This document shows positions 31,589-33,704 of a DNA stretch of 64,000 nt, piece by piece. The stretch is from a virus, in IMG/VR virus record IMGVR_UViG_3300002448_000002, positions 1,569-65,568 of that record, one strand, 5' to 3'. The notes beneath the pieces were generated by a model. It was not told where the DNA came from, did not search any database, and saw only the letters and a list, made by a program, of their open reading frames with translations. The translations under genes were made by a program, and so were the position numbers. How positions within the stretch are numbered: the first letter of the stretch is position 1; each line of letters begins with the position of its first letter.

Positions 31589-32119
31589 ATGAAGTATTCG
31601 CACTCCGGTCTAGCAGAGAAATCTTTACTTGCAAGACAGGATTTACTGGACTCTGTATGGGACAGAGTGCTGCGGCGCGTAAGAAAAACACCATTCGGTT
31701 GTTGGAGGCACTTAGGAGGTGATACTTCCTTAGACTACTATCCATTAGTCCAAGTTACCTTCTGCAAACGAAAAAGAGGTGCGGCGGTAGGTGTACACAG
31801 AATTTCCTACATCTACCACAATGGGCCAATTCCGGATGGTATGTTCGTCCTTCATAGATGCGACGTTCGGAGGTGTATCCGGCCTGATCATTTATGGTTG
31901 GGAACACAGGCTGATAACCTCAAGGACATGGCAGATAAAGACAGAAGTTCTCATGGAGAGAAACGTTCTATGAGCGTGCTCACCGAGAAAGAGGTGTTGG
32001 AGATGAGAATGTTGAAGTTTGAAAAAGGTTGGACCTACAGTCAGGTAGGTGAAGAGTTTGGGGTTTGTCTCGCGGCGGCATTCAACGCTTGTAATGGTGT
32101 GACGTGGAGGCGGGTATGA
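31589..32119 (+). CDS. HNH homing endonuclease (HNH_3 type) with C-terminal HTH
   Basis: CWRHLG, HRISY....GPIPDGMFVLHRCD...CIRPDHLWLGTQADNLKD; visibly more AT-rich than neighbours. Confidence 0.9.
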   Translation: MKYSHSGLAEKSLLARQDLLDSVWDRVLRRVRKTPFGCWRHLGGDTSLDYYPLVQVTFCKRKRGAAVGVHRISYIYHNGPIPDGMFVLHRCDVRRCIRPDHLWLGTQADNLKDMADKDRSSHGEKRSMSVLTEKEVLEMRMLKFEKGWTYSQVGEEFGVCLAAAFNACNGVTWRRV

Positions 32120-32607
32120 AAGTGAGAAAAACATACCGCAGGCGTCGAGCAGGTCCTCCTGTGCTGGAGTTTCGCGACGAACACGCCTTCCTGTCCAATT
32201 TCTACCCTGCCTCCCTTAGCCTCCCTCTGACCGGGGCTACGTCGGACGCTGTTGAGTTCCCCACTGTGGAGCACGCCTTTCAGGCGATGAAGTCACAGGA
32301 CCCTGACGAGCGGAACAAGATACGCCTCGCATCCTCTCCGGGGTTGGCGAAGAAGATGGGACGTCGAGTAAAGCTCCGCCCCGATTGGGAGGACGTCAAG
32401 ATTCAGGTCATGGAGCACCTGGTGTCTCTGAAGTTCGGCAATCACGAGAGCTTGCGCCAGGCTCTCGTACTGACGGGTGATCGGGAACTGGTGGAGGGTA
32501 ACTGGTGGAACGATACCTTCTGGGGCGTGTGCAAGGGACAAGGGCGGAACGAGCTTGGTATAATCCTAATGCAGGTTAGGGACCATTACAGCGGGAGGCG
32601 TTGGTGA
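32116..32607 (+). CDS. NADAR family protein (YbiA/RibX-like)
   Basis: FLSNFY, FPTVEHAFQAMK, SPG.AKKMGR, RPDWEDVK, KF, TGDRELVE...NDTFWG, G.N.LG..LMQVR. Confidence 0.92.
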   Translation: MKVRKTYRRRRAGPPVLEFRDEHAFLSNFYPASLSLPLTGATSDAVEFPTVEHAFQAMKSQDPDERNKIRLASSPGLAKKMGRRVKLRPDWEDVKIQVMEHLVSLKFGNHESLRQALVLTGDRELVEGNWWNDTFWGVCKGQGRNELGIILMQVRDHYSGRRW

Positions 32608-33704
32608 ACATCTTTGTCTTGCACGGTGACCCATACGTGGCGGCATCAATGCACGGTGATCGCCACGTAGTCAAGATGCCATTGGAGCTAGCGCAAGTTT
32701 TGAGTACGGTGCACAGGTTGAAGGGCACACGGGATGATTCCGTGCTCGACAAGTACGGAATCTACAAGGCGTCCTATCAACATCATCCAATCGTCAAGTG
32801 GGCGTGCAACAACGCTGCGAACTATGCGTGGGCACTTTGCATGTTCGATGGACTGTGCCGCGAGTTTCGTTTTCGTAGACACAAGGGACACAAGTGTGAA
32901 GAACTGATGGAAGGTTTGCGGGTGATTCCGGGTAATCTACCCGGGTGGGAGGACTTGGACAGCAGTCTCACAAATTCGCCCCTCTGCATGCCCGATACGT
33001 TTAAGACGAACAACATATTCCTTTCGTACCGTGCTTACTACCTGTACAAGTGGTGTCAGGGCAAGGTGGAATACAATTGGGGACGGCCGCCTCCCGATTG
33101 GCTGCGAGTCATGGTGAAGGGTTTGTTGGACACCCGCGCAGGCAAAAAGCTGAAGCGCACACGACGCAAGGTAATGCCACAGTGTCTATTGCCTGTGGAT
33201 GAGCCTGCACCCAAGAAGCGTACCAAGCCAGTTCGCGATACGATAGACCCGTCCGCAAAGGCGTACATCCAGAGCAAAAAGCCCAAACGGAAACGAGCGA
33301 AGGTTCCCGGTACCATTCAGGTATTCACCGGTGAGTACGCCTTCCTGAACAACGCGAACCCGTGTCCGATAAAGCTAGAAGACGGGCGTACCTACCCAAG
33401 TGCGTTGCACGCCTTCTACGCCTCCGCAACGTTTCGCGCAATGGACCGCCGTGCCATTCGGCAGGCGAAGGGAGCCTCGAAGCTACGCAGTATATGGACG
33501 GGTATCGACAAGCACACGTTGCGCGGTGATTGGGATAAGGTGCGGGATGACGTGAAGCTCGATATCCTTCGGCGCAAGTTCGAGGATGAGACCCTGGCAT
33601 GGAAGCTTGTGGGTACGGGTGACGCCCTTCTGAATGACAAGTTGCATGGGTGGAATGTCGAACTCATGCAAGTGCGAGAGGAGTTGAAGCTTAAGTCGAA
33701 ATAA
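32604..33704 (+). CDS. Pyrimidine-dimer DNA glycosylase (DenV)-like domain fused to a degenerate NADAR domain
   Basis: N-terminal MNIFVL..DP..AA..H.DRHVVKM.LE.AQ.LST, HHP...W; C-terminal FLNN...TYPSALHAFYA...RGDWDKVR....ILRRKF....L..TGDALL...LMQVREEL. Confidence 0.78.
   Translation: MNIFVLHGDPYVAASMHGDRHVVKMPLELAQVLSTVHRLKGTRDDSVLDKYGIYKASYQHHPIVKWACNNAANYAWALCMFDGLCREFRFRRHKGHKCEELMEGLRVIPGNLPGWEDLDSSLTNSPLCMPDTFKTNNIFLSYRAYYLYKWCQGKVEYNWGRPPPDWLRVMVKGLLDTRAGKKLKRTRRKVMPQCLLPVDEPAPKKRTKPVRDTIDPSAKAYIQSKKPKRKRAKVPGTIQVFTGEYAFLNNANPCPIKLEDGRTYPSALHAFYASATFRAMDRRAIRQAKGASKLRSIWTGIDKHTLRGDWDKVRDDVKLDILRRKFEDETLAWKLVGTGDALLNDKLHGWNVELMQVREELKLKSK

What the first reader, a model, noticed from the sequence alone, without database searches (positions are those of the whole stretch)
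32116..33704. NADAR gene followed by a DenV-like glycosylase fused to a second, degenerate NADAR
Seen: ORF 32116 keeps canonical NADAR motifs (VEHAFQAMK, NDTFWG). ORF 32604 has an N-terminal DenV-like domain, a basic linker and a second NADAR-like domain in which E becomes L (ALHAFYA), the Lys is missing and the D..WG motif is deleted. Established: NADARs remove ADP-ribose from guanine in DNA (antitoxins of DarT1), and YbiA/RibX-type members hydrolyse damaged GTP-derived riboflavin intermediates; T4 DenV is an N-glycosylase/AP lyase. Inference: a two-protein module in which the dead NADAR binds ADP-ribosylated or otherwise modified bases and recruits a glycosylase, as a counter to DNA ADP-ribosylating defence. 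It is notable in a phage that probably also rebuilds its guanines through QueD/QueE.
Basis: partly seen in the sequence, partly recalled or inferred. Interest (0 to 1): 0.72.

Follow-up and report, generated by a model that had tools for sequence, protein, structure and literature searches.

The report
Phage NADAR plus glycosylase-like/dead-NADAR fusion
An uncultured sponge-associated phage carries an intact ADP-ribose-removing NADAR enzyme, of a kind already shown in other phages to undo a bacterial DNA-marking defence, followed by a gene that joins a distant relative of the T4 UV-repair enzyme to a second NADAR copy that has lost its catalytic residues; the fusion is new but was found in only two related phages, and its role is untested.

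Summary
ORF 32116-32607 is a canonical YbiA-subfamily NADAR with every ADP-ribose-contact and catalytic residue intact. It is 45% identical to the NADAR of E. coli phage Bas33, whose protein (identical in Bas32) counters DarTG1.

ORF 32604-33704 starts at a GTGA stop/start overlap and has three parts:
- Residues 1-175 belong to a very large, uncharacterised branch of the T4 endonuclease V (PF03013) superfamily.
- Residues 176-236 are a Lys/Arg-rich linker.
- Residues 237-366 are a NADAR-fold domain with Glu->Leu268, Lys->Ala275 and the E..D..W loop deleted.

The dead domain is not decaying: dN/dS is 0.18 against a 71%-identical relative.

Five of the six ADP-ribose-contact residues mapped are gone, which weakens the idea that the dead domain reads ADP-ribose.

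The fusion occurs in only two related phages. A third has NADAR plus a stand-alone glycosylase-like gene. A fourth has NADAR plus a pyrophosphatase. NADAR and this glycosylase-like family were never neighbours in 160 other viral loci.

Verdict: a lineage-restricted new variant built from known parts. Gene 1 is probably an AdfN-like counter-defence enzyme. Gene 2 is probably a DNA-lesion enzyme with an accessory pseudoenzyme domain. Earlier scan notes describe other viral NADAR-repair-enzyme fusions on other DNA.

The parts
31233..31583 (+). Small conserved protein of unknown function that lies just upstream of NADAR in all four related phages. Here the HNH gene is inserted between them.
   Evidence: Alignment A5 of four orthologs has 26 invariant columns, with a shared C-terminal GMSFT.N motif. 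No Pfam, NCBIfam or PHROG hit.
31514..32119 (+). HNH homing-endonuclease-like gene. The gene call on an identical contig starts at the position equivalent to 31589. Its stop overlaps the NADAR start (ATGA). It is absent from the three relatives.
   Evidence: PF13392 HNH_3 E 1e-14. phrog_1872/phrog_59. Gene maps of L001, L171 and L172 lack it.
32116..32607 (+). Gene 1: an intact YbiA-subfamily NADAR of 163 aa. Predicted to be a guanine ADP-ribosyl glycohydrolase.
   Evidence: PF08719 E 1.5e-31. TIGR02464 above its cut-off. E52, K59, K79, K95, E127, D133 and W136 correspond to PnNADAR E43, K50, K75, R93, E125, D130 and W133 (alignment; PMC11543638). 45% identical to bas33_0070.
32535..32564 (+). 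Promoter-like site (GGGACA-18-TGnTATAAT) inside the end of gene 1. A weak lead only.
   Evidence: The number of such sites in the region is no higher than in shuffled sequence.
32604..33128 (+). Gene 2, residues 1-175: a domain with the T4 endonuclease V fold, from a divergent PF03013-related branch (phrog_624).
33129..33311 (+). Gene 2, residues 176-236: a Lys/Arg-rich linker, a likely non-specific DNA-binding tether.
   Evidence: Sequence. dN/dS 0.13 against L001. Other family members carry basic tails, e.g. P0041.
33312..33704 (+). Gene 2, residues 237-366 plus the stop codon: a NADAR-fold pseudoenzyme domain (L268 for Glu, A275 for Lys, E/D/W loop deleted).
   Evidence: dN/dS 0.18 and 85% identity to the L001 ortholog.
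33723..33756 (+). Intrinsic-terminator-like hairpin (9-bp stem, 6 G-C pairs, T run) 19 bp after the gene 2 stop and ahead of the capsid gene.

Best explanation
This is an accessory cassette sitting in a variable hot spot between the scaffold gene (28248-29069) and the P22-type capsid gene (33917-35026) of a sponge-associated phage.

Gene 1 is an intact YbiA-subfamily NADAR. It most likely removes ADP-ribose from the N2 of guanine in phage DNA. That would make it an orphan-antitoxin-type counter-defence against DarT1-like toxins, as AdfN of T4 and the NADARs of Bas32/33 and Bas60 are. This is inferred from homology and intact catalytic residues, not shown.

Gene 2 is translationally coupled to gene 1. 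It is an intact member of a very large, uncharacterised branch of the T4 endonuclease V superfamily. It is probably a lesion-recognising DNA N-glycosylase/AP lyase that uses its conserved N-terminus and E28 (inference). In this lineage it has gained a basic DNA-tethering linker and a NADAR-fold pseudoenzyme domain.

That domain cannot hydrolyse ADP-ribose in the canonical way and has lost most ADP-ribose contacts. It is nevertheless kept by purifying selection. It keeps basic residues at the positions of PnNADAR R93 (R314) and of the DNA-recognition Lys K75 (R295). I therefore rate it most likely as a nucleic-acid- or partner-docking accessory module, comparable to the basic tails and other C-terminal domains seen on other family members, and less likely as an ADP-ribose reader.
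For: Gene 1
- NADAR hits above the curated cut-offs, with all mapped catalytic and ADP-ribose-contact residues present.
- 45% identity (E 7e-41) to bas33_0070 of phage HildyBeyeler, which is Bas33. The NADAR of Bas32/33 restores phage growth on DarTG1 and neutralises DarT1 (PMC11257639).
- E. coli YbiA itself hydrolyses guanine-ADPr in vitro (PMC11125620).
- Close homologs of gene 1 sit next to ADP-ribosylglycohydrolase and NUDIX genes.

Gene 2, N-terminal domain
- phrog_624 E 1e-42.
- 52 of 65 family members hit PF03013.
- The family's DkHvvkm.lE aligns with T4 D14..H16..E23 in both MAFFT and HMMER, though not significantly.
- M1, N2 and F4 are nearly invariant, and almost all of the 150 best representatives match from residue 1 or 2.

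Gene 2, C-terminal domain
- NADAR fold.
- Loss of E, K and the E/D/W loop.
- dN/dS 0.18, equal to that of the active NADAR at 0.19.

Coupling and synteny
- The GTGA/ATGA stop/start overlap is kept in L001 and L171.

C-terminal add-ons are common in the family (P0041, P0007, P0085, P0140).
Against: - No biochemical data exist for either protein or for the phrog_624 branch.
- E. coli YbiA and T4 gp30.3 did not protect cells from DarT1 in one study (PMC11125620), so in-vitro activity does not guarantee counter-defence.
- Gene 1 passes the riboflavin-intermediate N-glycosidase model TIGR02464.
- NADAR adjacency to this glycosylase-like family was not seen outside this lineage: 0 of 80 and 0 of 80 loci. 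The pairing may therefore be inherited synteny in a cargo hot spot.
- The C-domain model was built from an alignment dominated by canonical NADARs, so the fold is partly imposed.
- With only two sequences, nothing can be said about a new active site in the dead domain.
Confidence: 0.5

Rival explanations
1. The dead NADAR domain specifically recognises ADP-ribosylated (or otherwise modified) guanine in DNA. It delivers the endonuclease V-like domain to excise the adduct. This gives the phage a base-excision route alongside direct reversal by gene 1.
For: - The domain keeps the NADAR fold and is under purifying selection.
- It keeps basic residues at the R93 and K75 equivalents (PMC11543638).
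- It is coupled to an active NADAR.
- Earlier scan notes describe viral NADAR fusions to AP endonuclease and glycosylase domains in other genomes (untested leads).
Against: - Five of the six mapped ADP-ribose contacts are missing: E43, K50, E125, D130 and W133 equivalents. K50 is the phosphate-binding Lys, and its loss abolishes function in C7 NADAR and AdfN (PMC11543638, PMC11257639).
- The relative L171 keeps NADAR plus the glycosylase-like gene without the dead domain.
- The fusion was found nowhere else.
Confidence: 0.13
2. Nucleotide or metabolite housekeeping. Gene 1 acts like YbiA/RibX as an N-glycosidase on damaged GTP-derived intermediates or non-canonical nucleotides, possibly connected with the phage's 7-deazaguanine pathway. 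Gene 2 is an unrelated DNA repair gene.
For: - Gene 1 exceeds the curated cut-off of TIGR02464, 'riboflavin biosynthesis intermediates N-glycosidase'.
- The phage encodes QueD and QueE.
- In relative L172 the gene after NADAR is a MazG-type pyrophosphatase (phrog_3301, E 2.9e-27), with a radical-SAM gene upstream.
Against: - The que genes are 26 kb away.
- The homolog in Bas32/33, 45% identical, has demonstrated anti-DarTG1 activity (PMC11257639).
- YbiA itself cleaves guanine-ADPr (PMC11125620).
- Close homologs neighbour ADP-ribosylglycohydrolases, not riboflavin genes.
Confidence: 0.15
3. Coincidental neighbours. Gene 2 is a general UV or base-damage repair enzyme, like its stand-alone relatives in hundreds of phages. 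The NADAR-like tail is an evolutionary leftover or a purely structural appendage with no link to ADP-ribosylation or to gene 1.
For: - More than 6,400 cluster representatives match the protein, and nearly all of the 150 best are stand-alone proteins of 160-180 aa.
- 633 phage records carry the N-terminal domain, none with the fusion.
- There is no NADAR neighbourhood elsewhere.
- The scaffold-capsid interval holds different cargo in each relative.
- The glycosylase-like domain has a different divergence history from its flanks (dS 2.0 against about 0.5), which suggests mosaic exchange.
Against: - dN/dS of the tail is 0.18, with 85% identity over dS 0.5. That argues against a decaying leftover.
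- The stop/start overlap with NADAR is kept in three phages.
Confidence: 0.2

Closest known systems
Phage NADAR counter-defence proteins: AdfN (T4 gp30.3), NADAR-Bas32/33 and NADAR-Bas60 (Johannesman et al., PMC11257639)
   Same: - Gene 1 is a stand-alone phage NADAR with the catalytic Glu and Lys intact.
- It is 45% identical to the Bas33 protein.
- It is an orphan, in that no DarT-family hit was returned for the five neighbouring proteins scanned against PADLOC.
   Different: - It belongs to the YbiA subfamily (Glu at the E125 position), not the His-bearing T4-type phage clade. PF08010 matches only at E 0.055.
- It sits in the head-gene region.
- It is followed by a second, inactive NADAR domain fused to another enzyme fold.
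- Its activity is untested.
E. coli YbiA / plant RibX-type NADAR (PDB 2b3w; TIGR02464)
   Same: It is the best solved-structure match for both the active gene (E 3.7e-21) and the dead domain (Foldseek E 1.3e-7). The subfamily-defining Glu is present in gene 1.
   Different: - The context is a phage genome, with no riboflavin genes nearby.
- The C-terminal copy lacks all catalytic residues.
T4 endonuclease V / pyrimidine dimer glycosylase (DenV; PF03013; PDB 1enj, 2end)
   Same: - All-helical fold with the N-terminus packed against the helix that carries the conserved Glu.
- Most family members hit PF03013.
- E28 aligns with the catalytic E23, and the C-terminal P.W motif aligns with T4 PTWYKYY.
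   Different: - The domain is about 30 residues larger.
- Only 12% identity in the structural alignment.
- The query is below Pfam detection.
- It begins Met-Asn rather than Met-Thr, so the initiator Met is probably retained (my knowledge of methionine aminopeptidase specificity).
- Classical PDGs rank only 26th among AlphaFold DB clusters, while uncharacterised proteins come first.
- No member of this branch has been assayed, as far as my searches show.
Tandem NADAR-NADAR proteins (e.g. P0026, 285 aa, next to two ADP-ribosylglycohydrolase genes)
   Same: P0026 is the only NADAR among the best 150 representatives matching the dead domain (39% identity). It shows that two NADAR units can work in one system.
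   Different: - Both halves of P0026 keep the Glu and the Lys.
- There is no endonuclease V-like domain.
- Here the two NADAR units are split across two genes, and one of them is inactive.

Membership tests
NADAR (PF08719), gene 1 | Profile score above the curated cut-off | tested here: met
   110.3 bits against 35.1. TIGR02464 85.7 bits against 73.7.
NADAR (PF08719), gene 1 | Catalytic Glu and phosphate-binding Lys seven residues apart (PnNADAR E43/K50; AdfN E36/K43) | tested here: met
   E52 and K59 in VEHAFQAMK. Both are invariant in alignment A3.
NADAR, YbiA subfamily, gene 1 | Glu at the PnNADAR E125 position, plus D130 and W133 | tested here: met
   E127, D133 and W136, aligned to 8bau. 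The subfamily definition is from PMC11543638.
Anti-DarT1 phage NADAR (AdfN-like function), gene 1 | Hydrolysis of guanine-ADPr in DNA and rescue of phage growth on DarTG1 | not testable with these tools
   Only homology is available: 45% identity to the Bas33 NADAR, whose activity is reported in PMC11257639.
NADAR, gene 2 C-terminal domain | NADAR fold | tested here: met
   AF2 pLDDT 93. Foldseek YbiA E 1.3e-7 (TM 0.74) and 8bau E 2.2e-5. Caveat: the alignment fed to AF2 consisted mostly of canonical NADARs.
NADAR, gene 2 C-terminal domain | Profile score above the curated cut-off | tested here: not met
   23.9 bits against 35.1, E 5.6e-5. phrog_1017 E 3.5e-12.
NADAR, gene 2 C-terminal domain | Catalytic Glu and Lys, and the E125/D130/W133 loop | tested here: not met
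   L268 and A275 replace them. The loop is deleted (LL------NDKLHG---------WN in alignment A2).
T4 endonuclease V / Pyr_excise (PF03013), gene 2 N-terminal domain | Profile match | tested here: inconclusive
   The query has no hit at E <= 1. 52 of 65 aligned relatives hit at E <= 0.01, best 4.4e-10. Precomputed PF03013 hits exist on P0005, P0006, P0013 and P0014.
T4 endonuclease V / Pyr_excise (PF03013), gene 2 N-terminal domain | Endonuclease V fold | tested here: met
T4 endonuclease V / Pyr_excise (PF03013), gene 2 N-terminal domain | Catalytic Glu (T4 E23) and a free N-terminal amine at the active site | tested here: inconclusive
   E28 is invariant and aligns with E23, but the alignments are not significant. 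M1 and N2 are nearly invariant, and the structural alignment starts at residue 1 against residue 2. No coordinates were available to measure the geometry.
T4 endonuclease V / Pyr_excise (PF03013), gene 2 N-terminal domain | Pyrimidine-dimer glycosylase / AP-lyase activity | not testable with these tools
   I found no assay of any member of this branch in the searched literature.

The most novel reading that the evidence does not exclude
The NADAR-fold pseudoenzyme has been repurposed as a reader of bulky guanine adducts (ADP-ribosyl-guanine or similar). It steers an endonuclease V-type glycosylase to them. With the upstream active NADAR, this would give the phage two routes to clear DarT-type DNA marks: direct reversal and base excision. 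It would be the first 'reader' NADAR and the first assigned substrate for the large phrog_624 branch of the endonuclease V superfamily.
Probability: 0.12. Interest if true: 0.75.

Novelty: new variant of a known kind. Interest (0 to 1): 0.4.

Why it matters
- Phage NADARs are a recently recognised answer to DNA-ADP-ribosylating defence (DarTG1). This locus adds a YbiA-type example from an uncultured marine (sponge) phage.
- It also shows an unusual elaboration: a selectively maintained, catalytically dead NADAR domain attached to a DNA-lesion enzyme fold.
- If the dead domain targets the enzyme to modified DNA, it would link reversal of ADP-ribosylation to base excision repair in phages.
- It would also give a first functional handle on a very large uncharacterised protein family: more than 6,400 cluster representatives and 633 phage records, including T4-like cyanophages once said to lack denV (PMC2984593).
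- If the dead domain does not do this, the locus is an ordinary mosaic of accessory genes.

Tried and rejected
- Complex prediction of gene 1 against both domains of gene 2: no verdict, score 0.00. It is not evidence either way.
- Profile of the N-domain family against PDB sequences: no hit. hhalign against the single T4 DenV sequence: null. Foldseek against PDB: only insignificant rows for 2end and 1enj. The link to endonuclease V rests on VIA-align and on Pfam hits of relatives.
- DNA search of the locus against GenBank phages: no match.
- Searches for further copies of the dead domain found only the 71% ortholog. I searched 5.8 billion proteins, JGI metagenome contigs and IMG/VR.
- Close relatives of the N-domain in prokaryote genomes: none.
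- Recent tandem duplication as the origin of the dead NADAR: rejected. It is 32% identical to gene 1, no closer than to unrelated NADARs at 28-42%.
- A T5-like 'second swarming motility protein' next to the NADAR in phage SE11: by eye it resembles neither a NADAR nor the glycosylase-like family, so the annotation is probably wrong. Neither Bas33 nor SE11 has a match to the glycosylase-like family profile.
- TGT/DpdA in the 66-kb record: not found, but the record is about 75% complete.
- No RNA holder listed among sequencing runs, so there is no information on expression.
- PADLOC: only a weak NADAR-type hit for gene 1 (PDC-M42C, E 1.3e-7) and none for gene 2.
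Full report
**What is there**

The window is most of a roughly 66-90 kb genome of an uncultured phage seen repeatedly, at 93-100% of sampled words, in sponge metagenomes. Almost all genes lie on the + strand.

- The left part holds replication and recombination genes: RecA-like, Mre11/Rad50-like, QueD at 4706-5206, QueE at 5208-6107, FEN, DnaB and SNF2.
- The finding lies in the head module, between the scaffold gene (28248-29069, phrog_206) and a P22-type coat gene (33917-35026, PF11651 E 1.3e-22).

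**Gene 1 (32116-32607, 163 aa)**

- It starts at an ATG that overlaps the stop of an upstream HNH gene (ATGA) and follows a GGAGG.
- It is a textbook NADAR: PF08719 E 1.5e-31, TIGR02464 above its cut-off, YbiA 2b3w E 3.7e-21 and PnNADAR 8bau E 7.9e-9.
- I used the alignment to 8bau and the residue roles given in PMC11543638. Every mapped contact is present: E52 (E43), K59 (K50), K79 (K75), K95 (R93), E127 (E125, the YbiA-subfamily mark), D133 (D130) and W136 (W133).
- YbiA-like NADARs occur in 506 GenBank phage records, including the T5-like Markadamsvirinae.
- Gene 1 is 45% identical (E 7e-41) to bas33_0070 of phage HildyBeyeler, which is BASEL phage Bas33 (PMC11619597).
- PMC11257639 reports that Bas32 and Bas33 encode identical NADARs that restore phage growth on DarTG1 and neutralise DarT1. 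It also reports that E36A and K43A kill T4 AdfN.
- PMC11125620 shows that E. coli YbiA hydrolyses guanine-ADPr in vitro but does not protect cells from DarT1.
- Close non-phage homologs of gene 1 sit beside ADP-ribosylglycohydrolase and NUDIX genes.

**Gene 2 (32604-33704, 366 aa)**

- It starts at a GTG inside GTGA, seven bases after GGGAGG. The ortholog in L001 and the family consensus start MNIF at the same point.
- A strong terminator-like hairpin follows its stop (33723-33756).

*Residues 1-175*

- They match phrog_624 ('DNA binding protein', E 1.3e-42) but no Pfam or NCBIfam model directly.
- The family is huge. 6,407 representatives of 50%-identity clusters match the protein, and nearly all of the best 150 are stand-alone proteins of 160-180 aa that match from residue 1 or 2. 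633 phage records carry the domain, many of them cyanophages.
- 52 of 65 aligned members hit PF03013 Pyr_excise at E <= 0.01.
- The AF2 model is excellent (pLDDT 97). Foldseek sees T4 endonuclease V only weakly.
- In AlphaFold DB the nearest clusters are uncharacterised proteins (E 1e-9), and classical PDGs rank only 26th.
- MAFFT and unfiltered HMMER both align the family's D19-x-H21...E28 with T4 D14-x-H16...E23. E23 is the catalytic Glu. The alignments are not statistically significant.
- 'DenV-like' is therefore right at the superfamily and fold level. Glycosylase activity is an inference. I found no assay of this branch.

*Residues 176-236*

This is a Lys/Arg-rich linker. Other family members carry histone-like basic tails or another small C-terminal domain.

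*Residues 237-366*

- They match NADAR weakly by sequence and clearly by fold (pLDDT 93; YbiA E 1.3e-7, TM 0.74).
- In alignment A2 the catalytic Glu is Leu268 and the Lys is Ala275. About 15 residues carrying the E125, D130 and W133 equivalents are deleted.
- Basic residues remain at the R93 position (R314) and the K75 position (R295).

**Is the dead domain junk?**

No. I compared it with the 71%-identical ortholog in L001.

| Region | dN/dS | dS | Identity |
|---|---|---|---|
| Gene 1 (active NADAR) | 0.19 | 0.49 | 85% |
| Gene 2, glycosylase-like domain | 0.17 | 2.0 | 60% |
| Gene 2, linker | 0.13 | 1.1 | 79% |
| Gene 2, dead NADAR domain | 0.18 | 0.51 | 85% |

The glycosylase-like domain has diverged far more than its flanks, which hints at mosaic exchange. 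The dead domain is no closer to gene 1 (32%) than to other NADARs (28-42%), so it is not a recent duplicate. Its best outside match is the N-terminal half of a tandem NADAR-NADAR protein (P0026).

**How general is the arrangement?**

Four related phages share the scaffold-to-capsid interval but carry different cargo there.

| Phage | Cargo around NADAR |
|---|---|
| Window phage | NADAR, then glycosylase-like domain fused to dead NADAR |
| L001 | NADAR, then the same fusion |
| L171 | NADAR, then a stand-alone 181-aa glycosylase-like gene, 58% identical, with an ATGA overlap |
| L172 | NADAR, then a MazG-type pyrophosphatase; a radical-SAM gene lies upstream and an RTX protein downstream |

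- NADAR is the constant element, together with a small protein of unknown function just upstream of it (alignment A5).
- The HNH gene is present only in the window phage.
- Outside this lineage, none of the 80 best IMG/VR loci of the glycosylase-like family has a NADAR within 4 kb.
- None of the 80 best NADAR loci has a member of that family within 4 kb.
- No other fusion appears among 1.84 billion representatives or 5.8 billion clusters, nor in the JGI or IMG/VR scans.

**Reading**

- Gene 1 is most likely an AdfN-like guanine de-ADP-ribosylase. This is a known kind of phage counter-defence.
- Gene 2 is most likely a DNA-lesion enzyme of the endonuclease V superfamily. It carries a DNA-tethering linker and a selectively maintained pseudoenzyme domain.
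- That domain has lost five of the six mapped ADP-ribose contacts.
- A metabolite-housekeeping role for gene 1 (about 0.15) and simple coincidence of neighbours (about 0.2) are not excluded.
- A complex prediction gave no verdict.
- Earlier notes of this scan describe other viral NADAR fusions to repair or replication enzymes on other DNA. I did not test them. They make a NADAR-repair theme somewhat more plausible.

**Verdict**

- This is a new variant of a known kind.
- Interest is moderate. The parts are known and the fusion is confined to one small lineage, but a conserved dead NADAR on a DenV-fold enzyme is unusual and easy to test.

Noticed in passing
window 31233-31583; L001 5130-5510; L171 4246-4476; L172 3735-3998: A small protein (76-126 aa, C-terminal motif ...HW[FY]R..V.Y.VL..GMSFT.N) lies immediately upstream of the NADAR gene in all four related phages. 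It has no Pfam, NCBIfam or PHROG match. It may be a fixed partner of the NADAR, or simply a conserved head-module gene.
   Followed up: partly
window 31514-32119: An HNH (HNH_3) endonuclease gene is wedged between the small conserved gene and NADAR, and its stop overlaps the NADAR start (ATGA). The three relatives lack it, as expected of a mobile homing endonuclease.
   Followed up: partly
window 29070-33916, compared with L001, L171 and L172: The interval between the scaffold and coat genes is a cargo hot spot. Its contents differ between relatives: a lipoprotein metallopeptidase here, and a radical-SAM enzyme, a MazG-type pyrophosphatase and an RTX repeat protein in L172.
   Followed up: partly
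window 32604-33128 against L001 6001-6525: The glycosylase-like domain is far more diverged between the two fusion-bearing phages (dS about 2.0, 60% aa identity) than the NADAR gene and the dead NADAR domain on either side (dS about 0.5, 85%). This suggests recombinational replacement of that segment.
   Followed up: no
phage records found (e.g. P-SSM4, S-CAM8, P-HM1, beside the clamp and clamp-loader genes): The phrog_624 branch of the endonuclease V superfamily is common in T4-like cyanophages. A 2010 review states that these phages lack a denV homolog (PMC2984593). Annotations vary between 'DNA binding protein' and 'pyrimidine dimer DNA glycosylase'.
   Followed up: no
P0007, P0085, P0140: Several members of the same family carry a different shared C-terminal domain (motif NPKR.GSKA..F..Y ... 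DL.YD..HG.I) after an Ala/Pro/Lys-rich linker. C-terminal add-on domains are therefore a recurring feature of the family.
   Followed up: no
L174 6562-7077 (Salmonella phage SE11 gp030): The gene after the T5-like NADAR is annotated 'swarming motility protein'. By eye it is a basic 171-aa protein that resembles neither a NADAR nor the glycosylase-like family, so the annotation is probably a carry-over error.
   Followed up: partly
window 4706-6107: QueD and QueE are adjacent in the replication module, but the 66-kb record (about 75% complete) has no TGT/DpdA match. How, or whether, 7-deazaguanine enters the DNA is open.
   Followed up: partly
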